Below are positions 1 to 63,258 of a stretch of 64,000 nucleotides of DNA, in pieces. Below the pieces are notes generated by a model. That model was not told where the DNA came from. It did not search any database and saw only the letters and a program-made list of their open reading frames with translations. A program made the position numbers and the translations under genes. This DNA comes from Raillietiella orientalis (Eukaryota): positions 3,534,001 to 3,598,000 of the forward strand of contig JAYWIR010000002.1 in assembly GCA_036172245.1 (NCBI GenBank), read 5' to 3'. The stretch's first letter is position 1. The number at the start of each line of letters is the position of its first letter.

Positions 1-2318
1 ATGACCGCGAAAACTCTGGAAGCCATTCTTGAGGAGGGCACCTTCCTACTGAGCACCTTTCGCGAAACGGAAAGAAGAAGGGCGAAAGCTCGGAAAGTCG
101 GAACTCTGTTCTCAAAGTGCCTTTCTTTGTCTCGTGCTGGACGTCTGAAGATGTCTTGCAGGAGGCAGTGACTCGCAAGCGAGCGCCGGTCGCAACCTTC
201 TTGAGTGAGCACAGGAGGATTTTCCTGTCCGGTCACCAGTCAGACCAGCCTCGTGGCACACAGCGACTCATCATATCCAAAGTCGAACGAAACTTTTGCT
301 CCTTCTTGTCCCGGATCGCGGAATCCGGGAAGAAATCCCGCCTGGTAAGGAGGAAGGTGAAAACCAGAAGCCCTAATCTTTGGCCCACTGGATGCTCCCG
401 CTCGGAAACGGTGACCACTGAAGGCATCCTTTCACATGCTGAGGAATACCCTGAAAGTCATGACCAGCAGGGAGTGGTGATCTTTAAATCCGCAGGCGTT
501 TCCAAAATTAGCCCGATGGAGTGGTGAGAGCCATCGAAACCGATTTGGAAACGAAGGGCTGCGAGCTTGCTCCTCTGTAGGGTAAGGGATCCGCTCTCGG
601 GGGTTTTCGGGAGGGCGAAGGTGGGGGTGGGGGGGGAGAGCTTCTGATTTCAAAATGCACGCTGTGCGGTACACACACGCACACGCCGCCAGTGGTCCAT
701 GAAATGCCGAGTGTTCAAGACCTGTGTGCCTCCATGCTTCACAGCCGAACAAACAAGCATGGCCCTTAATTGCATCCTCAAATTATTCAAAGCCCATTAG
801 CATCGAAGCAACGTCAATCCTTCCTCTCGACAAAGGCAAAAGGAATACACATGCATAAATGCGCGCCGACTTTCTTTGTGAAGGCTAAAGGCTAAGCAGC
901 CAATGGCAATTACCGCGAATGGATATCAAACGAGCTGCTCCGGTGGGGGAGACGTCGGAAGCGTTCTTGGAAGAAAAGCACACACACACACACACACATA
1001 CACGTTCTCCTACTTGTTGTTGGGTAGCGAGAAAACCCTGCCGTGCACGGAAACACGCGGGAACGAAGGGATCGCTGCTGACACTTGGAATGCGAAGAGA
1101 CGCCTGGGACGTCGGAGCCGCTGCGGACGGTAACCGGAATGGTGAGTGAAAACGGAAGAGAACGATTCCTGCTGACGACCCACGAAATGGGCACTTTGTG
1201 GGAAAAAACGGCACTCCAGATGTGAAACACACAGAATCACTTTTCACGTGCCGAGATCGTCATCGCTCAGCAATTCATTGTACTGTACGCCGTGCCTACT
1301 GATCGCATCTTTCCAATTCGTCGCGATACTCACTAAGATTTTTTTTTTTTTTTCTCCCAAGAGTACTTTTTCTAAACAAGGGAAAAGCACCAAAGCCTTC
1401 CGGGTTCATCCCAATTTTCAAAGAGGAGCTGGCGAGTGAAATTCCAATTTCCAACAGAAAATTCGAAAACACACACACACACACGGGCCCCGAAAAGAAA
1501 TTCCAGGAGGAGTGAGGCAGGAAAATCGGAGACGAACATTTCTCCAGAACGTTCTTCCTTTGAGAGTCTTCGCAGTTTTCCTGGGAGCACCGGAGAGCAA
1601 GGGAGGAAAAAAAAAAAAAAAATACCTGGCATGGTCCGAATCTCCGAGATCGGCGATCAAGGGGACTGTCAGCAGAAAATCTCGACCACGTCCACTACGT
1701 GGCAAGCAAAGTAACGAACACTAACACTAGGTATGTTTTTTGGGGGGAATCCCGTCGAACAGTGCATGCTTCAAGAAACAGCCACGTCCATGGCTCCGGT
1801 GGGTCAAGTCGAACACACGCACGCTGTTCACACTGTGGCCAAATTTTTCCGCTTCTTGCAGTGCGAAGGCACGTCGTCGTCGTCGACCAAGTGGGGGCTT
1901 CCACGGATCTTCACTCTTAGCAGAAGGGAGTGTTTCGCTTGAGCTGCAACACTTCGGATTTCTCTTCCAGGAGGTGGTGGCACAAGGCTTTCAAAGGCAC
2001 GTACTGATTCTGGCCAATGTACGAAAGAGCTAAGGCTATTTAAAGGTCGTGACCTTGCGCGACCCAATCCTATGGATAGCTAGCTGTAAAGATACCCATC
2101 GTGCATGCCCACTTATCAGGTGTGGCCTCGCATGGAGATATGGAATGGCGACGAATACGGGTGCTGAATGAAATAATTATTCTTATTCGCAATTATAGAG
2201 TCCGAGAAGCACGGAGCAGCTACAGGCAGTTTTCCAAAAAAGTTCACTGACCTGTCGATCGAATGCGAGTGCCTCATGGTCACGAGTCGATGCTTACGCA
2301 CAAAGAAAGCGATTTATG

Positions 2319-2427
<109 letters not shown>

Positions 2428-2965
2428 ACGAAGGTGGATGCGTGCACCAACAGAATCCGAGGGTGATCCTGGGGGCCCTGGGGCGTTGACGTTTGTCGGC
2501 AGTTTTCGCACAAACGAAAGAGAGCAATCGAATTATTTCGTTTTCAACAGGGTTTTCGTGTCCTCCTCCTGGTGGGCCCCCTCGGGGAAAGCAACGCCAG
2601 TGTGTGATTCCGTGTCCACTGACTCCTTGATGTCCTCTCAAAGATAATTCTATGAGCTCCACGCATCTATGACGTGCGTTTTTTTTCTTTTTTTTTGGGG
2701 GGGGGAGGGGGATTTTTCCTTTCTTGCACGTTTTCGTGCAGATAACGGCTTGGGAAGAAGATGTGAATCGGAAACGCTTAGGTGAAAAGGTGCCCAGCGC
2801 GTTTCCATACGTTAGAATGCATATGGAATTTCGTCCCCGCCGATAGTGTGTTATGCCACACGTGCATGGAGTGCGGTCCCCCGCGTGACTGAGTGCAGCA
2901 CATTCGCAGCGTCAGCCTTGAAAGCCCATTCATAGCTACTACGGATTTTCTTTTCTTTTCTCTTC

Positions 2966-2966
<1 letters not shown>

Positions 2967-2994
<28 letters not shown>
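2967..2994. repeat. (TG)14 microsatellite
   Basis: Direct reading. Confidence 0.95.
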
Positions 2995-2998
<4 letters not shown>

Positions 2999-3973
2999 GC
3001 TGTTGAACGAGATTCGACTACAGCACATCGGCACAACCCGTTATGGGCGTAGTAAAGATTCGACGGGGAGCGCCGGAGCCGTCCGCGGTACGCGCAGGCT
3101 CCGAGAGCCAGGACCCAACTGGAAAGGTTCACTGACCTGAAATCTGCTGGCTCTTCGTCCAGAATCAGTGAATATTACTTTAGACCAAAACGGAGATTCC
3201 AATACAGAAAAAAAAAAAAATTAAGGAAGCAGGTCATACGGGCGTTGACCCAAGTGCGTCAACAAAATTGCCATCCACTTGGGTGTGAGGTGCGTGCATG
3301 GAAAGTATCCCGTGATTATTCCTCTTCGAAACATGATCGTTCAATTAAACAAAACTTTTAATTACGTAAACATGGCCGTGCAACTTTCGAAAGCCTTCAT
3401 AGAGAGGCAGGCAGGCGTGCCTGCCGAATAAGCATTCGAAACCGAGGAAGCATTCGGAAAGCTCCGGGGAGGAGGAAGAAGGAGAAGGAAAAAATGCTCC
3501 CAGCGTTCGGCATTGCGTGTGGGAATTCCGCCCTGCGAGAGAGACATTTGGCCACCGCGAGTGGCCACTCGCCTCCTGAGAAACTCCCCCCCCGGAGAGA
3601 GAACGAACCACTTTCCTCCGCGCTACGTTGGCGCCATGTTGATATATCCGGCTGATATTCCGATGCATGAATTATATAATGATAAAAGTCCCGGAGATAA
3701 GATTCAGCGCGATACGCTGAAAGATTTATGACGTGCGCGCATCACCGAGGTGGCAAAAAAGAAAAGGAAAAAAGAAAAAAGGAACACATTCGAGGGCAAA
3801 CTCCAAAGTGAACGCTTCGACCACATCGATAAAGGAAGCCAAAGAAATGAAGGCAACTGGCCACTGAGTTTCGGCAGGGAGGGAGAGGGGATGAAAGAAA
3901 GAAAAACAAAACAAAAGCATGGGAAGCAGAAGACACACATACCAAAACACGGCACCGCATCACGGGAGCATCC

Positions 3974-4009
<36 letters not shown>

Positions 4010-7000
4010 TTCTCTTTCAAGCTTCGCCGAAAAGTTTCCAACGACTGGTCGTCAGTGGCTTACGCCCTCCTCCCTGTTTGGTCACGTTTTTCGTCGCCTC
4101 TCCTGAGAGGCCGGTCCAGAACAGGACCGTGCAGGCGCGGGACGTGCGTGCCGAACGTGTTCTGCGGACAGATGCACACGGCACGCGTCTACACGGAACA
4201 CACTGCACTTGGGAAGACGTCGGTAGCAGCCGCTCTGCAAGGACGCCGTCGGCATCGGCGGCGTCCCGGGGCCGCCAAGGCAACCACCAGGCGAAGGCAT
4301 TGTTGAGCAAAGTCGCCTTCGCAACGCGCGCCACCGAAAACGCTCGGCCTACAAATCAGTCGGAACAACACGCGCGCGCGCGCATGTGCCGAAGTGTGTG
4401 TGTGTGTGTGTGCCCGGAGCGTGCACATTGCATGCACCTGGAGGCAAATATGCGCTCAAATAAGCTCAAAGGAGAGAGGCCCTTCCCCCCTCGGGTAGCC
4501 GTCTTGGACCTGCCCACTCATCCCTGAGAGGCGTGCGACTCCCATGGCCGCCGCGTGCCATCGAGCAGGAGCATTCCCTGGGGCCTTCGAGCCTACCCCA
4601 ACGTCTGACCGTTCCCAGGGAAGAAAAAAGGGGGCCGTGACCCCTCCCCTCCGTCTTTGCGAGCCACGCGAGCACGTCGCCCTCAGCCCTCTTCCGGGAG
4701 AAGGGAGCAGGGAAGGTGGGGGAAGAAGAAAGGTGAGGGAGGAACCCACTTTTTTTTGTCTTTCCTCCTCGCATCGTCGAGGAGAGCCGGGAATCCTGTA
4801 ATCTCCTTCTCCGCGCTCTCACTCTCTCTCTCCGTGAGAAAGGAAGAGGGGACGCACTTCCCCGGGAACGCGCTGTAGCTCGGCGGAGTTGACCGCGGAA
4901 CTTCTTTCTTCTGGACCCCTGGGGGTTCTCGTGGGGCCCAGTCAACGTTCCAGGGATCCCTCCTCCCCCTCAGAGTCCCACCACGGCTTGCCTTACTCGC
5001 AGGTGCGGTGCTTTCGTCGGAGGCTGTGCTTCCTTTCTGCGGAGAGGTTTTCGCCACTCCGGGTTTCGCGATTTGCGTATCGCCTCACCTCCCCGCGTTG
5101 CTGCTGTCCTTTCCTTGGAGGACGAGGAAAGGAGCGGGAAGAAGGAAGCGAGGGGGGAATAGACGGAGGATGAAGGAGGTCGAATAAGGGGGGAATGGAA
5201 CAGGAGGAGGTAAGAGGGGACGACGACGAAGAGCAGGAGGGTGCAGGGCACCTCGACTCACCAAATTCGCCGAGAGGAAAACGTATGGAACGCAACACGC
5301 CGACGGCGGGAATTGCCGTCCCGCCACCCACCGCTGCTCGCCGCCGCCAGAGGGCCGCGGCTCTGGCTCGGTGCAGGTGGGAAGGAGAAGGAAAGAGACG
5401 CGGGGGTACATACGAGGGGAGAGAAAAAAAAAAAGGGGGAAATGAGGGTCCGTAGAGTCTTTGACCCCCACGGGCTGCTCTTTCCCATCCCCACGGTCGC
5501 GCTCCGAAACTTCCGCCCGGAGGGGTCAGGGCTCCCTTCTCTTTCTGCTCCACGTGCTCCTCCCACGCGGAGAGATCTCTCCACCTCGCTGAAACGCTCG
5601 GCTCGAGGGATTTCCGGAACTCCACTGCTCTTCCAGAGAACGACCGTCGCCCCCACGACCCTTCTTTACCCTTCCTGGGCTCTCGTCCCCTCAGCGGGGC
5701 TTTAGGGATTGGTAAACGGGCACGCTGACATGTGACGCCTGTCCGCAGTTCCTTCGGAGAGGATCTCCTCCGCCCCACCCCCACCCCCGCCCTCAGCCCT
5801 TCTGCGTCTGACCGTCGCCTGCGGCGGCTCCGGTCCGGGTGAGGCTCGCCTTGCACCGCCGCTATGTATCTCTCTCTGCAACTGGGGAAACGCGTGGGTT
5901 GTTGCAGGAGGCGCAAGCCCGCCAAAACGGGAGATTCCGACCGCAGGCAGGAAAAAAGAGAGGGGGAGGGGGAAAGGGGGAGAGAGAAAAAAAATGTCCT
6001 CCTACCCCCCCCCCCTTCATTCCCCCAAGCAAAGACTCTGCACGGAACGGGAGGCACGGTTCGTCGCCACGTTCGGATCCGGGGTCGCGGCTCGTAGGGA
6101 ACACGAGCTGTCCAAACGCCGGGGATCTGCGGTTTCAGTGTGGCTGAACCAGCGCGGAGTTCCTCCCCGAGCCGCTTCCAGAAACCGCGTGGGACGGACG
6201 CAGAGAAATCATCCCCCTGGCCTGGAACGGTCGCCAAATTCCGTCCCGCCGAGGAACCGACTGCAACTGTTTCCGGTTTCTCCGGGAACGAAATTCAAGA
6301 CGACGCTTTGGTCGTTTTCTTCCCCCTCCCCTCTTTCCCCCTTCCCGCTCCGCGTTCGCTTCGGATCGGGCGATTCCCACGTTGCTCCGGAGCGAGTGAA
6401 ACGCGATGATTATGGAAATCGGGCGATCCAGCAGCAGCGGATCGTCAGCAGAGGACCGGCCGTGGAGGCGGAGGGCAGGAAGGCGGGCAATGGAGAACTG
6501 CGGGGGAGCGGCGAAGGCCTTCGGCGACGCGGCGCTTGGGACGGGGGGGAAGAAGCCGTCAGCCCGCGAGCGTCCCGCGCAGAACTCGCTCCCGGCAAGG
6601 CACGCTGGGGCGCCCAGCGCTTCAGGAAAACGGAGAGAAGGCGTGAAGGAGACCCACCCTCCCGATGGGTCATTCGGCAAAGAGCGGATTCCACGACGGC
6701 AGCGACGGCCCGAAGGGAGGATGGGGAGGGGGGTTCCGATTCCCGCAGATCAGCAAGCTCTATGGAGCGCTCATGCATCTAGGGAACTTTCCAAAAAGAA
6801 TTCTTCCCCCCCCCCCCTCCTCCCTTCCTCTTTCCCCCGAGAGGACGACGTGTCGGTCAGCTAGGAGTCTCACCACATTGAAGGGAACCAGAAAGGCCAG
6901 GCGCGATGCGAATGGGGGTGCCGGGGAGCAGCCGTCTTTTCGCTGCTCGAAATAAGACGCAACGTGACGAGGACGAGGGTCAAGCGGCGGCGAACGGCGA

Positions 7001-9241
7001 AACCTCGAGATGGGAACTGGAGGAAGGGGGGAAGGGTTAGGACGCCTGCGTGTGACGGACGGGACGACGGAGCACAGGAGCGACGGATTTTCCTCCCAGT
7101 GGGGGATGCGAGAAGGAGAAAAAGGATTTTCCAGGCTTTTCCTACCGAACATAAGAGAAACCTTCGTGCCCGAGACATCGATGTTCCCCGCTCCCCCCTC
7201 CCCTCCTCCTCCACATACTTCCCCTTCCGGACGCGGCATTCGTTGCGACAGAGCGGAATCCTTCCCGTGGCGTACAAGGAAAGGATGGAACCAGAAACGA
7301 GCCCTCGCATCCCTGAATCCTTTCTCTCCTTTTCCTCTCATCCCTGGAGGAGAGACTTGTTGGTCAAGTAGGATGCTTCCGTCACGGTGCCGCTCCCTCG
7401 CTGGAAAACTCTGCGGAAGAGGCGGTCCGCCTTCTTTCAGCAAAACGCGCAGAAGACTGCTTCCCCCTCCCAAGGGATTCCTCGGCGAGGCCTTTCTTTC
7501 CGCAGGACACGCTGGCGACTAATGAATCATCCCACTTCCCCTTCCCTTCCTTCGAATCCAGGCTGCGAGGAGAGCAGGGTGAAACGATCGTCATGACCGG
7601 GAAAGCCGGTGGGCTCTGGAATTTTTCGGCAAAGGTATCCATGCGCCCTGCTGGAGGTTCGTCTGCCATGACTGCTTGCTGGCTGCTCAGCGGAGAAGGA
7701 GACGAGAACCGGAGGGGACGCCTGATAGAGGTCCGCGACAAGAAAAAAAAAAAAAAGCTCGTCCTTCTCCAGGATTGCAGAGGGATCCATTCCGATCAGA
7801 CGGTCCTGCTCCGGTGATTCCTCCCGGGAAACATGCTGAAACGGTACCGGCTCTTTCCGTCCTTCGTGAGGGAGGGACGGGAGCACGGTCTTTCTTTCTC
7901 CTACATCATCTAGATCGCGTGTGGGTCCTCTCCTCCTAAGCATAGCTCTCGAGTGTTCCCTAGAACTACCTCCCAGAAGCAAAAGTGCTCCCTAGGGGCT
8001 TGCAGCAGACATGTGGAGAAGTAAGGCGGACGGAAGGATAGGGGCGAATGCGTAGGAAACATTACAGAAGCAGAGCTCCGCCGAAGGAACGTCGAGAAGC
8101 ACTGACCATTTCTTGCTCAGAAGCCATTTTCGCCTGTGAGATTTTCCGGACTCTGGAGGAAAGTCACGAGTTGTCTTCCTGTGTTCACAGGGACCTGCAA
8201 CTCCCGTGGTTAAAGGTAGCAAGAGAGTTTCTCTTTTCTCCTCCCATGCATAAGAAGGAAAGAAAGAATCGCTAAGAGTAGCACATCCTCTCTGCTTTCC
8301 GATTCCCACGCGCCCTATGCCCTCCTCTTCTTCAGGAAGAAGTGATTGGGAATGTTTCCGGATCCTGAAAGGGGTAAGGAGAGCTCGCGCGAGCGCGTGC
8401 GCGCGCGCCGGGAGGGCCGTCCATTTTTCCCTTACGACTTGGATCGACTTGCAAACTCGGTCGGCTAGAGAAGGCGGCTCTTTCCCCACCCCCGTCCTTC
8501 TTCCTGCCACCCACGCAGCAAGCGCCCCCTGCTCTCCCGGAGCGTTTGTGCCCGTTCCCTGCGGCGGCGCGGCCAGAGTTCGCATACGTCCTCTCGACCG
8601 CCGGGCGTGTGGGGAAGGCGCGCGCGTCGTGTCCGAGGATCCTCGGGAGCGTCCGTTTCTGATCGGCAAAACCACGCAAGGGTGAAAAAAGTCGCAAGCA
8701 CGCGGTGACCTTGGAAGCGGAGCACTGTGAACGGGATATGCAGGGGCGGGGGGTCCCGTCGTTGGTTCACATTAGGGCCTTGCGTCAAAGGGAAGCCTTT
8801 TTTCCAAGTAGACCTTTCTTCAACGTGGTAGTATGGCTGCGCTCTCCCACGATCACTATCCTTGCTCTCTCTTCTCCCCCTCCTCCTCTCTTGAGCTTGC
8901 ACCAACATCTCACGGCCGAATCCCTGACGCTTCCGCCCTCTTCGACCCGGGACACGACTCTGCTTCCTCGTCCCGGCTTGGGGAGCAGCTCATGTGGGAA
9001 AGCATGCTTCCCACCAAAAAAAAAAAAAAAGAATAAAAAAAGAGGAGAGGGAGGGAGGGAGGGAGGGAGGGAGAGCGAGCGAGAAGAGAGAGAAAGAAGG
9101 GAAGACCGAAATATCTGATTTCCAATTGTCAAGCTCTCCCTTGAGACAAACCATCCCTATAAACGCACTTTCCTTCGCTCCGATGATCCTGTGGTGCACC
9201 GCGACGGAGAAAAAAAAAAGGAGCGAACTTTCGACGTTGAC

Positions 9242-9277
9242 ACAGAAACGGATGTGTGTATACACATCCGTTTCTGT
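9242..9277. repeat. Inverted repeat, perfect 16-bp arms with 4-nt spacer
   Basis: ACAGAAACGGATGTGT-gtat-ACACATCCGTTTCTGT. Confidence 0.95.
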
Positions 9278-11103
9278 ACTTATGTATATATATATATATA
9301 TATTAACATCCCGTGTCCAGGCCGAATTGTTCCGTGCCGCTCAGGACAAGACTCAAAAATCACATGGAAAATGCAACCACCAATCACCGTGGAGAATGGA
9401 AAATTTTCGTATTTGATACTGGCTGATTTATTTCTCATCGCTGTTACCACGACTGCTACTATTATCCTTTATTATCATTAGTAGTAGTAGCTTTTCTTTG
9501 TTTTGCTTCACAACGCCGACGAAAAAAAAAAAAAGGAAAGAAACGCGGTATTACAATGCAGGTGTTCCCTTGAGAGCTTCGCGGAAAGATTACCATTAAC
9601 TGCCCTCCAGCCGGTCGAGGCTAAATTTAGATCGACAATGGTTTGCTGCCATTGTTGCGCCGCGGCCGGCTGGCAGAGTTCCGAACACGAATGATTTCGA
9701 CTTGGGGCGAGCGTGCGGGGGAGAAGCGCAAAACAGGGAAGAGCCCCCCCCCCTCCCCCTCCCCCCGCCCAAAAAAAGAGAAGAAGAAGCGCAAAGTTCC
9801 CTGCGGTGAACGCACGTTGTGCTGCTGACTGCTCCGAAGGCTCCAAAGGATCTCTGGGAGCGTGTAGCACTTTGGTTGCGAAGGAGAGACGCTGGACCAG
9901 AGACGTCCTGGGCGCGGCGCAGTCCGGCCGCTTCGAGGGACTTCTGCGACGAGGTCCGGTCCCAGCGATTCCTGGTGCCTCCCGAGCTTCCAGGTCGCCT
10001 TCAGCCGGAAACGGGATTCTCCGTCGTGGAACGGAACGCAAAGGAGTGCGTTCTGGGGAGACATCGGATGGGCTTATCCTCGTGGGGTTCGCTCTCAGTT
10101 AACCATTCGATCCGTGGAAATCAAAGTTCGTCCATCTATTTAAGTCGAGAAGAACGTCACTTGCACACTTCGGCACAACGTTAGAAGCAGGGGGGGGGGG
10201 GAAGAGGGGAGGGGGGAAGGAGGAAAACTTTAGCCTGGAAAGTGTGAACGCAGGAATGCGCAAAAAGTGCACGTTGGACTTTTCTGTTGGGAGGCTTTCT
10301 ATTGAGAATCGATCCTGAGAACGATCCACCTAACGCAGTCGTGGACTGAAGTGATGGGTGAAACGTGATAAGTGGAGGTTCCGTGTCTGAACTGCAGCAA
10401 GATCGAGCGTGAGTTTTGCACATAGGATTTTCTAGGGAATGGTTCGATCCTTCTGCTTTCTCGAGTGTTCCGATCTGGAAAATTATTCATAAAGAGGGGA
10501 AAGAAGAAGTCGGAGACGCCACGTTTCAATTTCTGACCGAAAGATCTGAACGTTTTCGGATGTGTGTGTGTGTGTGTGTAAGTTATTGCGCGCTTTGGGA
10601 TGCTCCTGCCTTCCCATCGAGCGGCGAGCTCTTCCTTTCTTTTGAGTGTTCGTTATGTGTAAGGCAGAGAGTGAGTGTTAGCAAAGGTGAAGGATTGGAT
10701 TTTTCTCCGAACGAATCGTAGAGTGGCAAACCCATGTACACGACGAGTGTTGCATTTCATCCACTTTTAATCAGCAAACACCAAAAGTGATGCGATGTTT
10801 ACTTTGAGAACAAAGAGAGAGAGAGAGAGAGAGGGAGTTAGGGAGGGAGAAACGTAAAGACTTGGATAGAGGAATATCTGAATAGAGGAACTCGAGCTTG
10901 CCTGTGTCAAAAGCGAGTGGGCTGACAAAAGGACTACTTGGACAGGGCGAACAGGAATTCAGGTTCTTCGATTCCGCTTCCTGAATGCGTTCTTCCTCAT
11001 CGTTTTCTACTGGTACGAAGGAAGCCAAGCCAGCAGCAAGGCTGGAAAAATCAAAAAGAGCTCAAGGCAGGACGATCTCTTTTATTTTTAGGAAACATGC
11101 GTT

Positions 11104-11105
<2 letters not shown>

Positions 11106-11137
<32 letters not shown>

Positions 11138-11176
11138 CTTTCTTCCTTCTTCTTCTTCTTCTTCTTCTTCTTCTTC
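11106..11176. repeat. T30 homopolymer followed by (CTT)n tract
   Basis: Direct reading. Confidence 0.93.
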
Positions 11177-11461
11177 GCTACGCACTTGAAGTACTTTGGT
11201 CTTGTTGTCCTTGTATATATTTCGAAACTTCTGTGCCTCGGGAAGTTATAAAACGGACAGTTAAGAGATAATGGAATGTTTTTATCAGCATACTGGATTG
11301 TAACAGCAGAATCGAACATTCCTGCTGATAATGCACAATCCTATGGAAGATACGTTGTGTGCGTATTGCCACTAATTATCTCCAGAATGAAGAAAAGCAC
11401 CAGTTTCGTGTGGGAAACGTAAAGAAAGCGTACGTGTACGGAGACGCAGAGGCGCGCGCAA

Positions 11462-11530
11462 ACACACACACACACACACGCACGCACGCACGCACGCACG
11501 CACGTACACGTACACTACGACACGTACACT
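11462..11530. repeat. Compound (AC)n(GCAC)n(GTACAC)n alternating purine-pyrimidine repeat
   Basis: Direct reading; boundaries approximate. Confidence 0.9.
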
Positions 11531-11692
11531 CTGCATGCACAGGCCCTCCCGGCAAACACGGCGAGCTTCTCTCGCGTTCGCGCGCCGTCGCTTGGCAACT
11601 TCGATTTTCGATGCAATTAGCGTGAATAAGCACCAAGAACGGGAGGATGTGTGAAGCTGCTGCTTCACGGGAGAAAAAATTCAAGGCTCCGC

Positions 11693-11728
<36 letters not shown>

Positions 11729-11738
11729 GGGAGAGAGA
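11693..11738. repeat. (GA)n tract about 150 nt inside the intron following the 11924-11888 exon
   Basis: Interrupted GA repeat, read directly. Confidence 0.92.
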
Positions 11739-11887
11739 GGAAAAAAAAAAAAAAGGAACGCGGCCTCGCATCTGCTGGTGGCAAAGGCGAACCCCCCGGC
11801 AGCGAAAAGACGCTGGGGCACGCTGATGGAGCTTGCAAGAGGAAAAATCTCCACACGGCGACCGACACAAATTTTTAATCTGCTTAC

Positions 11888-11924
11888 CTAAGGTGATCCT
11901 CAGCGGCGGCATTTTTATTCTCAT
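11888..11924 (-). CDS. Bcl11: Short first coding exon (MRIKMPPLRITL + 1 nt) of a BCL11-family gene, putative gene B; remaining exons not in window
   Basis: Minus strand reads gacaacATG AGA ATA AAA ATG CCG CCG CTG AGG ATC ACC TTA G|gtaagc: arthropod-type CAAC-ATG start context, consensus donor, phase 1. MRIKMP is, from my recollection (not a search), the N-terminus of arthropod BCL11/CG9650 orthologues. Confidence 0.7.
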
Positions 11925-12298
11925 GTTGTCGGATCCACGGCAGGAGAGATCAATGCAACCAACAACACCTTTCATTTTCTGCCTTCAAATCATTCTTAGG
12001 CTTAGAGGCTATAGACTTGATTCTTCAATGTCGGAACGCACCTGAGGGTGTCTAACGAAGTTCTCACCATTCGGTACTGATTTTCAAGGTCATAGGTTTG
12101 GTCAACGGCAATATGCTGCAGGCTTTGCAGCAGCGACTGTCACGCGAACATCACCTTCCCACTTGCCTGACGCGGCGCGTTCTGGCATTCTCCCGAGCCA
12201 ACTAGCCTGGGACTATTGCATGGGGACCACTATCTGATGCGTTCCTCTTTCTGTTAGCTAATCTCTGCCATTGTCTCGGTGTGTTCCTCGCCTCTGCG

Positions 12299-12300
<2 letters not shown>

Positions 12301-12332
<32 letters not shown>
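12301..12332. repeat. (AC)16 microsatellite
   Basis: Direct reading. Confidence 0.95.

Positions 12333-19612: not shown

Positions 19613-19664
<52 letters not shown>
19613..19664. repeat. (CA)26 microsatellite
   Basis: Direct reading. Confidence 0.95.
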
Positions 19665-19668
<4 letters not shown>

Positions 19669-37797: not shown

Positions 37798-37921
<124 letters not shown>

Positions 37922-44656: not shown

Positions 44657-46135
44657 TCACTGGACCATCTCGTCTTCCTCGGGCGCCGTCGCGCCCCCGT
44701 GGAGCAGTCTGTTGGCCGCGGGCACGGCCACAGTCGCGCCCGCCGCGGCAGCAGCAGCGGCAGCGGCCGCCGCCGCCGCGGCAGCCGCATCCGGTCCGCC
44801 GGCGGCGGCGGCGCCGAGGGCCAGCCCGACCAGCTTCTTCTTCTGGCTGACCACGCACTTGCGCATGTGTTTGTCCAGGGTGGAGGACACCGAGAAGGGC
44901 ATATCACAGTACTGGCAGCGGAAGACGTCCTTGCCGGTGCGGCCGTGGGTCTTCATGTGCCGCGTCAGCTTGGAGCTCTGGGCGCACGCGTAGGAGCACA
45001 GCTGGCACTTGTAGGGCTTCTCGCCGGTGTGCGACCGCCGGTGCACTGTCAGATTGGAGCAGTTCTTGAACACCTTCCCGCAGAACTCGCACGTGTCCTT
45101 GCGCCGCCCTTTCCTCTCCGAGGAGGCGCCCACGACGGCGCCCGGCAGCGAGGGGGGTACCCCCCCGCCGCCCCGGGGGGAGGCGCCGCCTCCGCCCTTG
45201 CGCTCGGCGTCCGCCAGGGCGTCCAGCAGCCCCGGCAGGCGGCTGCTCAGCGCCACCCCGTGCGTCACCGAGCGCAGCCACAGGCGCTTCGACTCCTCCT
45301 TCAGGCGCCCGCCGCCCGCGCCGAAGTAGGGGGGGGGCAGAGACCCCAGGAAGGCCGGGTGAGTGGGGGGCCCGCCGCCGAACCCGAAGGGCGCTGTCCC
45401 TCCTTCTGGGAAGGCGCTTCGGCGGCGACCGCCTCCGCCGCCGCCGCCGCCGCCGCTGCCGTGGTGCTGCTGCTGCTGCTGGTGGTGGTGATTGTTGCTA
45501 TTGTGGTGGTGGTGGTGGTGGTGGTGGTTGCGGCGGCCATGGCTAGGGCGGTCGCGGGCGGCAGCGGCGGCGGCTGCCGCCGTCTCTCCGCAGGTAACTT
45601 CCCCCTCGGCGTCCGAGCCGCCAGCGTCCCTGCTCTTCCCGCTGTCGTCGCAGCTGCTGCTGGCCTGGGTCGAGTCCGGTGCGGACGCAGCCTCGTCCTC
45701 GTTGACCCCGTTGACCTCGGGGCCGTCTTCTACGCGCGCCCGCTTCTCTCCGTCCTCCGCTCCACCACGCCTCCTCTGGCGGCGGCGGCGGCGGCGGCGG
45801 CGGCGCGCCGGCGGACCCGGGCCCTCGTCGTCTTCGTCGGCGTCTTCGTCGGCCTCGCGGTCGGCGTCCGGGTCGTCGTCGTCCGGGTCGTCGTCATCCG
45901 GGTCGTCGTCGTCCAGGTCGTCCTCGTCACCACCACCCTCCAGGTCGTCGTCCTCGTCGGCGTCCGGGCCGCCGCCCCCGGCCAGCTGCCGCAGGCGGCG
46001 CGAGTAGAAGTCCGCCGCCCGGGAGGGCGTCTGCGGCTGCGGCGGCGGCGCTGCCCTCAGGGCGACGGCTGCGGCGGCGGCGGCGGCAGCAGCGGCGGCG
46101 GCTGCGGCGCTCTGGTCGCGGCCGACCTCCTCGAC
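44657..46135 (-). CDS. Bcl11: BCL11-family gene A, last coding exon with C-terminal triple zinc finger
   Basis: Contains [12 protein letters not shown] (46012-45977; human DFSRRLRELAG), an acidic tract, and [81 protein letters not shown] (fingers at about 45091-44855), near-identical to BCL11A ZnF4-6. The last finger ends H-x3-C. TGA stop at 44659-44657. Confidence 0.95.
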
Positions 46136-46209
46136 CTGGAAGGTCGCGGGTGGGTGGGGTGGGAGCGACCGCTGAGTCGCACGGGCGGCGGCGGGCTGGG
46201 GGCACCCAC
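46136..46209 (-). other. Putative 74-nt phase-0 intron that switches reading frame
   Basis: CAG|GTGGGT donor and cccacccgcgaccttccag|GTC acceptor. Removal joins ...[12 protein letters not shown]... exactly in frame. The alternative is a 1-nt deletion in the same interval. Confidence 0.6.
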
Positions 46210-46472
46210 CTGGTGGTGGCCGAAGGCGGCCAGGAACTGCCGCTCCGCCAGAGGGAACCTGTAGACGGCGGAGAAGGGGTTGCCGTCGAAGCAGTGGCTG
46301 GGCGTGTGCGCCGGGGGGGGGGCGAAGGGGTTGGCGCCGCCGCCGCGCGCCCCAGCGGCGTCCACGTACAGGCAGACGCCGTGCTCGTTCTGGGCGTGCT
46401 GCAGTAGGGACCAGGCACTCCGGAAGTGGTGCTGACAGTGGGAGCAGACGAACTGGCGTGGTTCCCGAGCAC
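46210..46472 (-). CDS. Bcl11: BCL11-family gene A, coding exon with C2H2 ZnF1
   Basis: Reads (S)[37 protein letters not shown]...[16 protein letters not shown]...GHHQ, matching human [35 protein letters not shown]...NPFNLLRIP. This is the frame of track ORF 46057..46365, not of the 1027-aa ORF. The 3' boundary depends on the proposed 74-nt intron. Confidence 0.9.
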
Positions 46473-50911: not shown

Positions 50912-50956
50912 AAGCAGTGCTGTATATATATATATATATACAGCACTGCTTATAAC

Positions 50957-51017
<61 letters not shown>

Positions 51018-51036: not shown

Positions 51037-52485
51037 GGAGCACACACAATTTCACACATATGTACACTGCGCTCATTACACACGGTACAGTTCAAGGTAC
51101 GTGAACACATACGTTATTACTCTCGTTCCACACACACACACACCCGCATATATATATGCATATATATATATATATGTGAAATGCACACATATGTAAGTAC
51201 GGGAACGAGAGAAATGACGTGCATTTACGCACCTTGGAGTGGAATGTACCGTGTGTAGTGAGCGCAGTTCTGGATGAAACCCGGAGGGGTCAGAGAAGAA
51301 CGATTCGTTCCGTGTTTCCAAGTTTTCCTCGGGATGGCCCCCGAGGATCTCCGATCGCGGGCCGGACTGGTAGGCCAAAGGAACGGCGGCGGGGCTGAGC
51401 CAGCGGTTGCTCTGCAGTCCGGCAGGCACCTCCCGAACTCCTCGAGGTATTCCGGGAGGTTGTCCCTCCCTTCCTTCCCTGGTCCGTTCTTGTGACGGGA
51501 TCTCAAGTCGAAGGGACCGCGAACGCAGCCTTCGGTTCCGCCGGCGGCTTTTCTCTTCGCCACGGTTCCCTCCCTTCCTCCTCTTTCAGGAGGTGAGAGA
51601 AGGAAAACTCCACGCAGCAGCTCTTCTTCGCGTGGCAGACCTCCAGGCCGAGATCTCCAAGATGGATCTCAGAGTTCCTCCCCATCTGCGAGGAATCAGA
51701 GCGGGACGGAAGGGCATTCTTCCAGAGAAAGAGATGCGCAAGACAGGAGACCCGCTCTGCACTTGTCCCCCGGTCTTTTTAAGGGATTCCCAGAGTCGGA
51801 AGGAGAGCAAAGGGAGCACTACGGAAGAAGGAATCGAGAAGCGAGGCGCCGTTGGCTGCAAGAGGAAAGAGCACCGGAAGCACATTTTTCTCTCCAAAAC
51901 ACCGGGGACAAACCGATGCATGTCACGTGTCACGTGCCCTCGGTCAGTCCCTACGCTCTCGAGCAATGATGGGGAAGCGAGCAGGTTTGGTCAAGGAGCG
52001 AACGGTTCCTCCCTTCGAAAGGGGAGAAGCTGGTTCCTGGTTCCACGTATCCGTCTCCAGGACGGTAGCGACAACAAAGGACAAGCGAATCGGCTGCCTA
52101 GAAACCGGTCCCGCCGGTGGTGGAGAGAAAGGGGAAGGGGAGCGTAAGATTTCCGCTCCGGCTAGAGGTTCCGGGGACTCAGCGCTGCAGACTGCGAAGG
52201 GATGCTGCTTCGGGGGGAAGCATCCCTCCCTCCCGCATCCGGAGGGTCTGTCCTCTTCCCTCCAACAATCCTCTTCCCGCGAAGACTGTTGCATGAAGAG
52301 GCAGCAGATCTTTCACGAGAGATGGGGAAGGGGAGGGGGGCTGAAAGGGAGAGAGGGAAAAAGATGGCTTCGAGTGGGAGCGGGAGGAGGAGGAGGGGAC
52401 CATGGCAACCGCGAGGAAGAGAACTGAGCGTGAAGCGAGAGTGCAACAAGACCAGGTTCTTTTACCCGAGCAGGAGGCTACTTAC

Positions 52486-52773
52486 TGTGAAGATCTCCGC
52501 TCTTGTCGTGCAGGCCTGGTCGCAGAGGCGCGATCTCGTCCTGACCGGTCGCTTCGATGTCCGCGCACTGGTTGCTTTCCCTAGAGCTGAGGTCAAGGCC
52601 CTTCGAGTCATGGTCGTCGTAGCCGTCTGACTGCTTTCCCGTCCACAAGCAGTTTTCCTTGTTGCACTCGCCCGCTTTGTGGCGGATGAAGGAAACGATG
52701 TCGGACAGGAGGTACTCTTTCTGGCACAAGCCGCATATCAGAACATCACAGCCGGAAGAAAAATAGGTCATCT
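52486..52773 (-). CDS. Bcl11: BCL11-family gene A, internal coding exon with N-terminal CCHC zinc finger (ZnF0); equivalent to vertebrate BCL11A exon 2
   Basis: Translation CDVLICGLCQKEYLLSDIVSFIRHKAGECNKENC matches the BCL11 pattern (human [29 protein letters not shown]). Acceptor ttgtatttcag|AG-ATG at 52774/52773 (phase 1). Donor CAC-A|gtaagt at 52486/52485 (phase 1). Confidence 0.9.
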
Positions 52774-54219
52774 CTGAAATACAACGTGATAGTGAGGAAC
52801 GGCGGCTGCTGCTGGGGAGGAGAGGGAAAAAGGGGGGAGGCTCCTTTCCCTCTCTTCGTTCGCATCCTCATTTGCGGCAGAACGCTTCAGCTGCGCACGC
52901 TGATCTCAATTTCTGAGAATGTCATCATCTGCCGAGTTATCCTTGACGGCAGCTCTCGGAGAGGAACGATTTCGTCTCGGTTCCAGAAAGCCACGGAGAC
53001 CGTGAGAGAGGTCTCAGAAATACCTCAAGCTTCTCCTCCTACCATTTCCAACAACGCACCCCGCCTTATTCCGGCATGCTCTAACGGAGACGGTTACCGC
53101 GGCTGCTGAAATGGTGAAGACGGGAAGGGGCAACTCTTGAGATCTTTCTGCGAAACATTCCCCCAAAGGCCTGATGACGCAACTCCTTTTTTGGCAGGTC
53201 AAGGATGCATTTTCTACAGTCAGCAGGAGTCGGCAGGCGAAAATACAAATAAAACAAATACTTGGCTAAGTGTGCGTGGCCTGAGCAGGCAACCTTCGGT
53301 GAACGTCTACAAGAACTGTTGGATCGAAAAGAAGACGGAAAAAAAAAAAAAGCAGACGAAGAGAGAATTCCTGATTCTCCGATGGATGTCAGAAGTTCAT
53401 CCACACATTGTTAAGATGCATTTTTATGTTGTGTATCTGCATATGGACTGTGCGATCAGTGTGCATGATGAGCTGAATCCTCAGCAAAAAAAAAAAAAAA
53501 AAGGCGAAAAAAAGGGGAAAAAAAAGTGCGTTCACGTAGAGCATGCTCCATCGTGCTTTATGCGTGCACAAGCGAATATTCCTCATATTTGCTTCCTCGG
53601 TGAAATAAATCCACAGCAACCACATTCGCGAAAAAGCAGGCGCGAAAAATTTCCGTAATTCACTCGCGCGCGGGCCTCGGAGAGGGAGCCGATCCGCACC
53701 CCGGCAACCGTTCGCGCCGGAATCCTTCCGCCTCCGCCGGTCAATCGATCAAACGCGTTCACCCATTGTTGGCGTCGGTATTTTTAGCTTCCTGGAGGCA
53801 AGAATCGCGCACGCTAATGATCGTGTTTTGCGCGCTTCCCAGTTCCTATCCATCCGTTCGCTGTGTTCCACTTTCGGGACCATCGCAGTCACGATAATTA
53901 TTGATAATTATTAAGTGAATTTGTTGAGTAAACGACCTCGGGGCGTTCAGAGTGCTGGTGTGGCGAGGAAGCCCGTCATGTCGACACCCCTGCGTACGGA
54001 ACGCGCCGTACCAAGGGGGAAGGGGGGGGAGGGAAAAAAGGAAAAAAAGAGGAACCGCGGAGACCATGGCAACGGTTCGTATTCTGCGCTGTGCTCTCTA
54101 TTGTGTGCAACATGTGTAATCGAGGCGTCAGCTGTGAAAGTCGTCGTTTTAAAACGTGTTATACCTGCGTTCCGAAAATGTCCTCCCAAACTGCTTGATT
54201 TATACGTATATCCGCGGAT

Positions 54220-54220
<1 letters not shown>

Positions 54221-54248
<28 letters not shown>
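54221..54248. repeat. (AC)14 microsatellite
   Basis: Direct reading. Confidence 0.93.
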
Positions 54249-54251
<3 letters not shown>

Positions 54252-55441
54252 TATGGTTGAATACGTACGTGTGCTCGGGGGTGGATTCGCATTTTCATGC
54301 TGGAAGATTGAAAAGACCAAGGGGACACGTGTACGTGTACGGGACTGCACTTTCGAGCCAGCGGCCGAAAAACCGACACGCCGGCGACGGTGAAAACGAA
54401 ACTGAGGCGAGGAAAGTGAAATTTCTGGCGCTCAGATTCGAACGAGCGCACGGTGGAGCTCGTCCGGTCTCACCTAAGGCTAGGGCTGGTCACCACTTTC
54501 AAAGGGGGAGGGAGCTGTCGGGAATGGGCCGGAATGTGGGGGGAAGCAGCAGCGCCGGGAACGTAACCGGGTAAACTAACTTTAGCTTAAAATTAAAAAA
54601 AAAAATACGAACAATAACGTGTGTGGTTTCTCCCCCCCCCCTTCCCCCATCGGTGGTGGTAGCCGCACAAAGCGAATGGGAGTGGGCCATGAAAAAGATT
54701 CGGAACGTTCCGCGAGGCAGAAAAGAGGGAGGGAGACTCCATTCTTGCATTTTTTTTTTTTCTTTTTTTTGGCAAATGGGGGGGGGGGGGAGATCCCTAT
54801 GCGTTCCGAGCGCTACATTCACCACAGGGAAAAAGCTTCCTGGATGGGAACGGAAGACCGTCACGCGCTGCTGTGAGGATGTTATTTTTTTTTCCCGTCG
54901 TCGCCTTGCGCGCGGTTGCGGTGCTCCGACGTCGCGGGCACACGAGAGCTGCGTGGCCCGCACGTATCCGGAAAACCAAAAAAAAAAGAAAAAAAAGAGG
55001 AAACCTAAAGAGCACACAAGAAAGCAGGAAGATCCCTCGGCGAGCTCGCTCGGTTCGGGGAGGCGCCGCTGTTTCCGATGTGCTATGACCCGCTCAAAGA
55101 GTAAAACTTCACGTTGAGGAGGACGGGAGGGGGGGGGGCGCGGAGGAGAAAATACACGCGTCACTTGGGCGGAGGCGAAGACCCGGAAACTTGAGGTGAG
55201 GATAACGCGGACGTTCCAAGGGAGGTGTGTGGAGCGGAAGTCCACGAGATCGAACATCCCCCCGCGAGGATGGATGAGGACGAAGCTGTCCTCGTGTGCA
55301 GCTGGCCGTCGCTCCGGCGGCGCGCATATATAAAAATAAACCAAACGGACTGGAGGAGGCGAAAGCAGGAGCAGCTCTCCTTTCCTGAGAGGGACGGGAA
55401 GCAGGAAGTGCAAAGTGCAGGGTTCTTACGGAGACGCGCAA

Positions 55442-55459
55442 GCGCGCGCGCGCGCGCGC
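55442..55459. repeat. (GC)9 run, potential Z-DNA former
   Basis: Direct reading; continues into ACACAC. Confidence 0.88.
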
Positions 55460-61400: not shown

Positions 61401-63229
61401 GTGGTCCCGCCTGGAAGGGAGTGTTTCGCGTGGTTCTGTTCAGCCCGCCCCGCCACGACCGGGAATCTGGGGGACCTGGAGTCTCGTAAGGCGCCGCGAA
61501 AGGGGTGGGGCGGTCCTCGCTGCTACTGCTACGGACGCCCCGGGTCGGAGTCGTTCCGGACCGGAAATCCGGCCAAGGAGGATCGGGAGCGAGAGACTGG
61601 AACCAGGGGCGAGAGCAGGCAACCGGAACTCCAGGAACCTGAGGAGCTTGGACTGCTTCTGTGGAAGCCTCCTGGGAGGAGGAAGAATCCCGTGCCGCCC
61701 AGTCCGAGCCGCCCAGCTGACGTGGACGCGCGCTTTCGAAGCGGAAGGTCGCTGCCGAGGGCGGCTCTATAGAGGGAAGGGAAGAAACGGGGAGAGAGGG
61801 GAGGGGGCGAGCAGCAGCGGAAGCCACGAGGAAGCGTAGATAGCAAGAAACCGCGAGGCGGGCGGCTTTTCCGAGGTTCCTCCTCCGCGCGCGCCGCCGG
61901 GACCTCAACGGGAAGACCGCGAGTGGCGGCGGGTTGCTGGCTGCTGCATCGTCGGGAGCGCCGCCGTTTCCACCTGCGTGCGTGGCTAAGTGGCCTCGTT
62001 CCTCTCCCATCGCGGGTGGGGGAGACCTGCGAGGATGGAAGCGGAGCGTCGCGTTGTCAAGGTGACAGACGAAAGTGCGCAGCAGCAACGTATGTGGCAG
62101 GTTTGCTCACGCGACCGCGTGTGTGTGTGTGTGTGTGTTTTTTTTTATTTCCCTCTTTCTTCCATTTTCTATGGAGCAGCATTTTCTTGTTTCTCGTCGT
62201 CGTGTGTCCAGACGAAAGTATTCGGGCAGCGGAGGGGGAGGGAAGCGCAAGCTCCCGAGCAGCCTCTTCTCGCGGGATGGGAGGGAACAGGCGGGGGTCT
62301 GCGTTTTCCACGCCATTGTTCGCTCGAAAAAAAAAAAAAAAAAAGAAGGAAAGAAGAAAGAAAGGGACCTCGAGCAGACGCGCGCGCACGTGGATGTCCC
62401 GGAGCCACATCGGAAGCGGCGGCGCTCCTGACGGGGCACCGGTGGTCCGGGATAGGCGTTCGCGCGTCGCTGGGAGTGGGTCACAGGAAGAGATTTGGGA
62501 AGGGAGGGGGCACGTTTTTTGTCGACGCACCGCCTGTTGGGAACGAAGGGATGCCGATTTTTTCGTCCCCGTTCCCGGACTGGACTGCGCACCGACCTAG
62601 AGGCCGGGGGGGGGGGGGAGGTTCGGGGTCGCCGACGCGCTTGCATTCCTTCCGCGTCCCCAGTCAGCCTCCTGCATCCACTCTGCACATTTGGCACCTA
62701 CGCCACTGGAGCCACCTCGCCGCTTTTCCCGCTTTATTTTTCGTAGGCGAGTCGACGACGGGGATGCCTCGTGGCTCCACTCGGGGGATGAAACGGCCGC
62801 GGGGTCTGTGCTCCAGGAAACCGAGGATGGGAAGGAAGGGGAAGCTCTCCTCTGCGAAGGGGTCATCGGTCGGGGCTCGAAAGTGCACTCGGCAAGGGTC
62901 AGGAGGGGGGAGAAAGGGGAGGGTCGTGTACTGAGGGCGAAAGTGGGAAGGCTGCTCACTGAGTTCGGGACGACGCGGAGCCCGAGGGTGGTCAGCACGC
63001 CTGGGAGCAAACACAGCGACCGACGGCGGCGGGAGGAGATTGGAAGGCGGGGGGGGGGGGGGGAAGGACGACTCCGGCTCGCCGCCGCCGCCGCCGCCCT
63101 AAGAGGGAGGTGCGTCTGCACCCATCCGGTGATCTCGCGAAGTGTTGCCGGCTCCTGCACCGCGGCGGCCGAGAAATCCCTCCGCTCCCCACTCGCCGAG
63201 CAGGGACGAGCGAATTTCCCAGTCCCTCT

Positions 63230-63258
63230 GCCTCCTCCTCCTCCTCCTCCTCCTCCTC
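63230..63258. repeat. (CCT)n trinucleotide repeat
   Basis: Direct reading. Confidence 0.9.

What the first reader, a model, noticed from the sequence alone, without database searches (positions are those of the whole stretch)
11888..11924. Orphan BCL11 first exon lying 33 kb DOWNSTREAM of the BCL11 body it could complete
Seen: a 37-nt minus-strand coding exon, CAAC-ATG...MRIKMPPLRITL-G|GTAAG, hidden inside otherwise meaningless track ORF 11376..11975. Its phase-1 donor fits the phase-1 acceptor at 52773 and would give MRIKMPPLRITL-E-MTYFSSGCDVLICGLC, a well-formed N-terminus, but it lies 3' of gene A's stop codon. I saw no such exon in the 11 kb upstream of 52773 and no ZnF0 exon in 1-11887. 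Recalled knowledge: arthropod BCL11/CG9650 proteins start MRIKMP. Inference, in order of likelihood: (1) head-to-tail tandem BCL11 paralogues, with gene B continuing left of the window; (2) assembly mis-ordering; (3) trans-splicing as known for Drosophila mod(mdg4) and lola.
Basis: partly seen in the sequence, partly recalled or inferred. Interest (0 to 1): 0.75.

Follow-up and report, generated by a model that had tools for sequence, protein, structure and literature searches.

The report
Genuine BCL11 first exon, partner unseen
A 37-base stretch is a real first coding exon of a BCL11/Chronophage-type zinc-finger gene, but it sits 33 kb behind the only BCL11 gene body in the window, so it most likely starts a second copy lying outside the window rather than anything exotic.

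Summary
On the minus strand, ATG 11924 to G 11888, followed by GTAAGC, encodes MRIKMPPLRITL plus one base. The recalled homology also holds. All 15 MRIKMP-type insect BCL11 proteins I retrieved carry the invariant MRIKMPAVRIAQ, always followed by a residue with a G-initial codon. That gives the same length, phase and last base as here. The peptide is the outlier of the six-frame window: score 38, next best 26, and 0 of 300 shuffles reach 38.

The window holds one BCL11 body on the same strand: CCHC exon 52773-52486, ZnF1 exon 46472-46210, last exon 46135-44657. The stop lies 32.7 kb upstream of this exon. No BCL11 exon lies in 1-11887, and no second MRIKMP-like exon lies in 52774-64000. Gene A lacks the central finger pair that 68 of 68 homologues keep.

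No flanking sequence, genome or RNA run was available, so the partner exon cannot be shown.

My ranking:
- second BCL11 unit continuing to the left, about 0.45
- assembly artefact, about 0.25
- relic or other use, about 0.15
- trans-splicing, about 0.04

The finding is real but probably ordinary.

The parts
11888..11924 (-). Coding part of a BCL11-type first exon: ATG plus 11 codons plus G (MRIKMPPLRITL, phase-1 end)
   Evidence: Sequence read. It matches the invariant insect MRIKMPAVRIAQ at 8 of 12 residues, the first six identical. It is the unique outlier of the six-frame scan, with 0 of 300 shuffles reaching its score.
11882..11887 (-). Splice donor GTAAGC directly after the exon
   Evidence: The exon-intron junction TAG|GTAAGC fits the general donor consensus (recalled). 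Its use in RNA is not shown.
11973..11975 (-). Upstream in-frame ATG (would add MKGVVGCIDLSCRGSDN) with no stop before ATG 11924
   Evidence: ORF 11376..11984. Whether it lies inside the transcript is unknown.
52486..52773 (-). Gene A exon with the BCL11 CCHC finger (ZnF0). Phase-1 acceptor at 52773, in-frame ATG at 52771, phase-1 donor A|GTAAGT after 52486
   Evidence: Pfam PF25491 CCHC_BCL-11A scores 45 bits against a cut-off of 27. tblastn and profile hits.
46210..46472 (-). Gene A exon with ZnF1 ([30 protein letters not shown]...). Phase-1 acceptor, phase-0 donor CAG|GTGGGT
44657..46135 (-). Gene A last exon, after a 74-nt intron: [12 protein letters not shown] motif, acidic and His/Gln runs, ZnF4-6, stop at 44659-44657. 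No ZnF2-3
   Evidence: The acceptor at 46136/46135 is my choice among in-frame AG sites and is not shown by RNA.

Best explanation
The 37 bases are the coding part of a genuine first exon of a BCL11/Chronophage-family zinc-finger transcription factor gene, homologous to the insect exon that encodes MRIKMPAVRIAQ. It most likely starts a second BCL11 transcription unit (gene B) arranged head-to-tail behind gene A. A promoter above 11924 would drive a minus-strand transcript. The donor at 11888|11887 would be spliced across a first intron of more than 11.9 kb to a phase-1 acceptor of a CCHC-finger exon beyond the left edge of the window. Gene A's own first exon would likewise lie beyond the right edge, more than 11.2 kb upstream of 52773, or gene A starts at its in-frame ATG 52771. 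Shown: the exon, its homology, its phase, its uniqueness in the window, and the single body in the window. Inferred: that it is transcribed and spliced, that a gene B body exists, and that B is a true paralogue.
For: Exon identity:
- 8 of 12 residues match a peptide that is invariant in 15 of 15 MRIKMP-type proteins.
- Those proteins come from at least five insect orders by the names.
- It has the same 12 codons plus 1 base. The residue after the peptide is A, D, V or E in 15 of 15, all with G-initial codons.
- Isoform pairs join the peptide to different exons exactly there: Cinara P0028 against Aphis P0037, and ladybird P0265-P0269.
- The scan score is 38 against 26 for the next best, and 0 of 300 shuffles reach 38.

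Arrangement:
- It lies on the same strand as gene A and downstream of its stop, as expected for a tandem head-to-tail copy.
- ATG, reading frame and donor are intact.
- No BCL11 exon lies in 1-11887, by tblastn with 22 homologues or by a profile of 48 full-length homologues, which finds only gene A's three ORFs.
- The window has no N and no internal duplication.
- No other Pfam family appears in 418 of 448 ORFs of at least 90 aa. This is a gene desert, in which long first introns are plausible.
- Drosophila cph is the only gene in a 46-kb deletion (passages of PMC9482335).

Gene A is derived:
- It has the CCHC finger plus 4 C2H2 fingers and lacks the central pair.
- 68 of 68 homologues that have ZnF1 carry 6 fingers.
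- The central pair is reported to give DNA-binding specificity (passages of PMC9482335).
- Losing it is easier to accept if a second copy keeps it.
Against: - No gene B body was seen, so it rests on sequence I could not read.
- BCL11 is single-copy in Drosophila and Daphnia (passages of PMC9482335 and PMC2889900), so the prior for a paralogue is modest.
- The exon also fits gene A's acceptor at 52773 perfectly (phase 1; 21 residues before DVLICG, as in Halyomorpha P0060). That is what mis-ordering or trans-splicing would predict.
- Loss of ZnF2-3 could equally be a lineage trait of a single-copy gene.
- The libraries held nothing closer than 57-60% identity to the CCHC exon, so no relative's gene count could be checked.
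Confidence: 0.45

Rival explanations
1. Assembly artefact. One form is a false tandem duplication, where the second haplotype of one BCL11 locus was placed behind the first, so gene B is gene A again. The other is a mis-ordered join, where exon 1 really lies upstream of 52773 and there is one ordinary collinear gene.
For: The exon completes gene A without any adjustment: phase 1 to phase 1, GAG junction codon, normal spacing to the CCHC finger. Gene A has no MRIKMP-like exon in its 11.2 kb of upstream sequence. BCL11 is single-copy in the two arthropods covered by the papers read. The region is rich in microsatellites and 60-73% G+C blocks. Earlier notes on the same genome describe repeat nests on short pieces of 18 and 36 kb, which suggests an assembly with difficult parts.
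Against: The window has no N, so no scaffold gap lies between 11.9 and 52.8 kb. No repeated segment in the window could have caused a local mis-join. For a random mis-join, same-strand placement is only one of two outcomes. Nothing in the window marks a breakpoint.
Confidence: 0.25
2. A stranded exon. This would be a real but displaced or partially duplicated promoter and first exon that no longer belongs to a complete BCL11 gene. It could be a young relic, or the start of a non-coding or unrelated transcript. Gene A would then begin at ATG 52771 behind a non-coding leader.
For: The first full codon after gene A's acceptor is an in-frame ATG, and the 32 codons of open frame before it hold no other ATG. 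Gene A can therefore make a protein without this exon. Insect BCL11 genes do use alternative first exons on the same CCHC exon (ladybird isoforms P0265-P0269). No exon of any recognisable family follows within 11.9 kb.
Against: Start codon, 12-codon frame, terminal G and a strong donor are all intact. The six N-terminal residues are unchanged relative to insects. That would need a very recent event or continued selection. No duplicated flank is visible in the window.
Confidence: 0.15
3. Trans-splicing or another non-collinear join. The exon is transcribed on its own and joined in trans to gene A's acceptor at 52773, as is known for Drosophila mod(mdg4) and lola (recalled, not checked here).
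For: Only the perfect fit of phase and sequence context between donor 11888 and acceptor 52773, and the absence of any other MRIKMP-like exon in the window.
Against: There is no RNA evidence of any kind. The fit is equally expected for a paralogue. Protein-coding trans-splicing of this kind is rare. 22 kb of flanks inside the window is too little to call the exon truly missing upstream.
Confidence: 0.04
4. Chance: a short ATG-started frame that happens to resemble the BCL11 N-terminus.
For: A 12-codon frame followed by GT is trivial in itself.
Against: It scores 38 against a background maximum of 34 in 300 shuffles, and 26 for the next best real site. In addition it starts with ATG, ends in phase 1 on a G, carries GTAAG, and lies on the strand of a BCL11 gene in the same window.
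Confidence: 0.01

Closest known systems
First coding exon of insect BCL11 / Chronophage (CG9650-family) genes, encoding MRIKMPAVRIAQ
   Same: Both start with Met and share MRIKMP and R9-I10. Both have 12 codons plus one base, and that last base is G. Both are spliced in phase 1 onto the CCHC-finger exon or, in one aphid isoform, onto the ZnF1 exon.
   Different: Four residues differ (P7, L8, T11, L12) from a peptide that is invariant in all 15 insect sequences retrieved. The only compatible acceptors in the window lie upstream, not downstream, on the strand.
Exon 1 of vertebrate, mollusc and chelicerate BCL11 genes, encoding MSRRKQ...
   Same: It occupies the same position in the protein: a short N-terminal peptide before the CCHC finger, seen in 17 of 135 retrieved proteins with that finger.
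   Different: The sequence type differs. The MSRRKQ peptide is known as a NuRD/RBBP4-binding motif (recalled, not checked here). Whether the MRIKMP type does the same is unknown.
Alternative first exons of ladybird BCL11 (Coccinella isoforms X1-X4)
   Same: They show that BCL11 loci can carry more than one first coding exon feeding the same CCHC exon (MSSELFTRMELFFKYLN or MRIKMPAVRIAQ).
   Different: Those exons are presumably upstream and collinear. I found no equivalent of the second type in the window.
Trans-spliced loci mod(mdg4) and lola of Drosophila
   Same: Exons that cannot be joined collinearly but fit in phase.
   Different: There the join is shown by RNA and genetics (recalled). 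Here there is no RNA evidence, and a simpler reading exists.

Membership tests
BCL11/Chronophage first coding exon, insect (MRIKMP) type | N-terminal peptide beginning Met-Arg-Ile-Lys-Met-Pro | tested here: met
   MRIKMPPLRITL against MRIKMPAVRIAQ: the first 6 residues are identical and 8 of 12 match overall. It is the unique outlier in the window.
BCL11/Chronophage first coding exon, insect (MRIKMP) type | Exon ends after 12 codons plus one base (G), with a phase-1 donor | tested here: met
   The window has G|GTAAGC after codon 12. In insects the boundary is inferred from isoforms that diverge exactly there, and from 15 of 15 following residues having G-initial codons. No insect genomic DNA was read.
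BCL11/Chronophage first coding exon, insect (MRIKMP) type | Lies upstream of, and collinear with, the CCHC-finger exon of its gene | tested here: not met
   Within the window, the only CCHC exon (52773-52486) is upstream of it on the strand, and none lies in 1-11887. Beyond the window this cannot be tested.
BCL11/Chronophage first coding exon, insect (MRIKMP) type | Present in mRNA, spliced to BCL11 body exons | not testable with these tools
   No run holds the stretch. The 0.04 shares are explained by a (GT)n run at about 12300-12332.
BCL11 protein family (gene A) | BCL-11A-like CCHC finger near the N-terminus | tested here: met
   PF25491 scores 45 bits against a cut-off of 27.
BCL11 protein family (gene A) | C-terminal triple finger ZnF4-6 | tested here: met
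   67-91% identity to BCL11 proteins over the local alignments of the queried 131 residues, which cover 64-96% of them. Profile domain E-value 2.4e-80. Three C2H2/C2HC matches.
BCL11 protein family (gene A) | Central finger pair ZnF2-3 | tested here: not met
   The ZnF2-3 parts of the homologues align only to ZnF4-5 of the window. Gene A has 4 C2H2-type fingers, against 6 in 68 of 68 homologues with ZnF1.
Trans-spliced protein-coding loci (mod(mdg4)/lola type) | mRNA joining exons from separate primary transcripts | not testable with these tools
   No RNA data.

The most novel reading that the evidence does not exclude
The assembly is right and there is only one BCL11 gene. Its conserved first coding exon is encoded 33 kb downstream of its own stop codon and is joined to the CCHC-finger exon by trans-splicing of a separately transcribed mini-exon. 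That would be a non-collinear gene for a conserved developmental transcription factor.
Probability: 0.04. Interest if true: 0.8.

Novelty: new member of a known kind. Interest (0 to 1): 0.3.

Why it matters
If a second BCL11 unit really follows gene A, this animal would have a tandem pair of a transcription factor that is single-copy in Drosophila and Daphnia. One copy would have lost the central DNA-binding finger pair, which would make it a small natural experiment in dividing BCL11 functions. If instead the exon belongs to gene A, the locus marks either an assembly error worth fixing or, much less likely, a trans-spliced developmental gene. As it stands, the practical value is for annotation. 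The exon is real and should not be discarded as a meaningless ORF, and gene A should not be closed at ATG 52771 without checking the flanks.

Tried and rejected
- **Whole genome:** none is held for this window, so the flanks could not be read.
- **Sequencing runs:** no RNA holder is listed. All 24 rows share 0.04 of the words. The queried stretch contains a (GT)n run at about 12300-12332, which I take to be the shared words. I therefore did not lay reads.
- **Protein word searches with the CCHC exon:** lengths 'longer' and 'near' found nothing.
- **Exhaustive representative search:** 144 relatives, the best at 57-60% identity (ticks). No same-species or near-species protein turned up.
- **Earlier scan notes:** nothing near, nothing by sequence, nothing by words.
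- **Self-comparison of the window:** two inverted self-matches only, at 50912-50951 and 51066-51268. There is no duplicated segment.
- **Other first-exon types:** I searched for the ladybird/Tribolium type, the Anabrus and Cloeon starts, the fly MYxKM type and MSRRKQ. All scores were at background, 26 or below, apart from MSRRKQ-type hits of 27-34 in Arg/Lys/Pro-rich runs.
- **A weak look-alike at 53649 (minus):** it has no start Met before it and no phase-1 donor, so I rejected it.
- **ORFs just downstream of the exon (11054-11340, minus):** they gave only low-complexity Lys/Glu matches. AP3D1 scored 20.9 bits, below its cut-off of 28.2, and the profile E-value was 0.37. Rejected as exons.
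- **Rfam and tRNA scans of the window:** nothing found.
- **Papers:** 'MRIKMP' occurs in 0 papers of the library. 'BCL11' + 'tandem duplication' + 'arthropod' gave one general review, seen in the listing only and not relevant.

Full report
**What is there.** On the minus strand the window reads gacaacATGAGAATAAAAATGCCGCCGCTGAGGATCACCTTAG|GTAAGC.
- The ATG is at 11924-11922, the last exon base is G at 11888, and the donor GT is at 11887-11886.
- That makes 37 nt: 12 codons for MRIKMPPLRITL plus one base.
- The frame is part of a stop-to-stop ORF, 11376..11984, whose remainder is simple-repeat translation.
- An in-frame ATG at 11975 could add 17 residues if it lies within the transcript.

**Is it a BCL11 exon?** I searched the large protein collection with the C-terminal finger region of the window's BCL11 gene. 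This returned 1406 proteins, of which the best 120 were listed.
- Several insect proteins in that list begin MRIKMPAVRIAQ.
- After the representative search and one cluster look-up, 15 retrieved proteins carry this peptide, and it is invariant in all 15.
- By their source names they come from aphids and other Hemiptera, a lacewing, ladybirds, a damselfly and a stalk-eyed fly.
- Ticks, a scorpion, a horseshoe crab, molluscs and vertebrates start MSRRKQ instead.
- Two flies start MYxKM. The Drosophila RL-isoform primer in PMC9482335 reads the same way when I translate it (passages).

The exon boundary also agrees.
- The residue after the peptide is A (9), D (3), V (2) or E (1), all with codons that start with G.
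- Isoforms diverge exactly there. One aphid form joins the peptide to the ZnF1 exon. Ladybird isoforms put either this peptide or MSSELFTRMELFFKYLN in front of the same CCHC exon.
- The window's exon therefore has the same length, phase and last base, and matches 8 of 12 residues.
- In a six-frame scan of 127,930 positions it scores 38 and the next best site 26. In 300 locally shuffled windows the highest maximum was 34.
- Chance is excluded for practical purposes.

**The BCL11 gene in the window (gene A).** tblastn with 22 homologues (the middle of that output was cut, but both ends were visible) and a profile built from 48 full-length homologues find only three coding pieces. All three are on the minus strand.
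- **CCHC (ZnF0) exon, 52773-52486.** It has a phase-1 acceptor and a phase-1 donor. Pfam PF25491 scores 45 bits against a cut-off of 27.
- **ZnF1 exon, 46472-46210**.
- **Last exon, 46135-44657,** after a likely 74-nt intron. It carries the [12 protein letters not shown] motif, acidic and His/Gln runs, ZnF4-6 and the stop.
- The lengths add up to an open frame of 675 residues from ATG 52771, or 688 with the 37-nt exon in front. This is my arithmetic.
- Gene A has no ZnF2-3. The homologues' central fingers align only to its ZnF4-5. It has 4 C2H2-type fingers, while 68 of 68 homologues that have ZnF1 have 6.

**The puzzle.** The first exon lies 32,733 bases downstream of gene A's stop, on the same strand.
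- Its donor fits gene A's acceptor at 52773. The junction codon is G+AG, giving Glu, and 21 residues precede DVLICG, as in Halyomorpha P0060.
- No BCL11 exon lies between it and the left edge, a span of 11.9 kb.
- No MRIKMP-like or other known first-exon type lies in the 11.2 kb upstream of 52773.
- The window has no N and no internally repeated segment.
- No Rfam family or tRNA was found.
- No other Pfam family was found in the 418 of 448 ORFs of at least 90 aa that I scanned. The 30 ORFs left out lie at 42.8-47.3 kb around gene A's last exon, plus the CCHC ORF, which one search scanned separately.
- The locus is a gene desert around one developmental transcription factor.

**What I could not do.**
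- No genome is held for this window.
- No sequencing run holds the stretch. The small shares listed are explained by a (GT)n run inside the query, so I laid no reads.
- The protein libraries hold nothing closer than 57-60% identity to the CCHC exon.
- The scan's earlier notes say nothing on this locus.
- The partner of the donor at 11888 is therefore not shown by any data.

**Weighing the readings.** A head-to-tail second BCL11 unit predicts exactly what is seen:
- an intact first exon on the same strand behind gene A;
- a first intron longer than the 11.9 kb available;
- gene A's own first exon beyond the right edge.

Gene A's loss of the central finger pair is easier to understand if another copy keeps it. 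That pair is said to give DNA-binding specificity and is described as highly conserved in the fly protein (passages of PMC9482335). Against this reading, BCL11 is single-copy in Drosophila and Daphnia (passages of PMC9482335 and PMC2889900), and no second body was seen.

An assembly artefact predicts the same picture inside the window and cannot be excluded. It could be a false haplotype duplication or a mis-ordered join. Earlier notes on this genome describe repeat nests on short pieces, which raises that prior a little.

A stranded exon is possible, because gene A has an in-frame ATG as its first full codon and insects use alternative first exons. However, the exon's intactness argues for recent origin or continued use.

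Trans-splicing is supported only by the fit of phases, which every other reading also predicts.

**Verdict.** The exon should be annotated as a BCL11 first exon. The arrangement is most likely ordinary: a second unit running off the window (about 0.45) or an assembly artefact (about 0.25). The exotic reading keeps a few per cent. I could find nothing in print on the MRIKMP-type N-terminus (0 papers in the library searched).

Noticed in passing
window 44657-46472 (minus): Gene A has the CCHC finger, ZnF1 and ZnF4-6 but no central ZnF2-3 pair. All 68 retrieved homologues with ZnF1 have six C2H2-type fingers. The protein would be only about 675-688 residues long.
   Followed up: partly
proteins P0028, P0033, P0037, P0048, P0057, P0060, P0069, P0150, P0188, P0203, P0217, P0221, P0265-P0267: Insect BCL11 proteins carry an invariant N-terminal MRIKMPAVRIAQ where chelicerates, molluscs and vertebrates have MSRRKQ (the NuRD-binding motif, by recall). 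The peptide 'MRIKMP' occurs in no paper of the library searched.
   Followed up: partly
window 52769-52771 (minus): An in-frame ATG is the first full codon after the acceptor at 52773, and the 32 open codons before it hold no other ATG. Gene A could therefore be translated without any coding first exon.
   Followed up: partly
window 11973-11975 (minus): An in-frame ATG lies 17 codons upstream of the MRIKMP start with no stop between them. Without a mapped transcription start, the true initiation codon is open.
   Followed up: no
window 46136-46209 (minus): A likely 74-nt, very G+C-rich intron (CAG|GTGGGT ... ccttccag|) lies between the ZnF1 exon and the rest of gene A. The alternative is a frameshift in the assembly.
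   Followed up: partly
window 1-64000: Apart from BCL11, no Pfam family, Rfam family or tRNA was found. Long blocks of 60-73% G+C (14-34 kb, 42-48 kb) give many long spurious ORFs. Perfect dinucleotide microsatellites lie at 2321-2426, 19613-19665, 37834-37919 and 50960-51015.
   Followed up: partly
window 50912-50951 and 51066-51268: These are the only two self-matches of the window, and both are inverted (palindromic). One is 40 bases at 100% identity and one about 200 bases at 70%. Both lie inside gene A's intron between the CCHC and ZnF1 exons.
   Followed up: no
proteins P0265-P0269 (ladybird isoforms): Isoforms differ by one Val at the exon 1/2 junction (AQ|VDADG against AQ|DADG). This looks like a tandem NAGNAG-type acceptor on the CCHC exon.
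   Followed up: no
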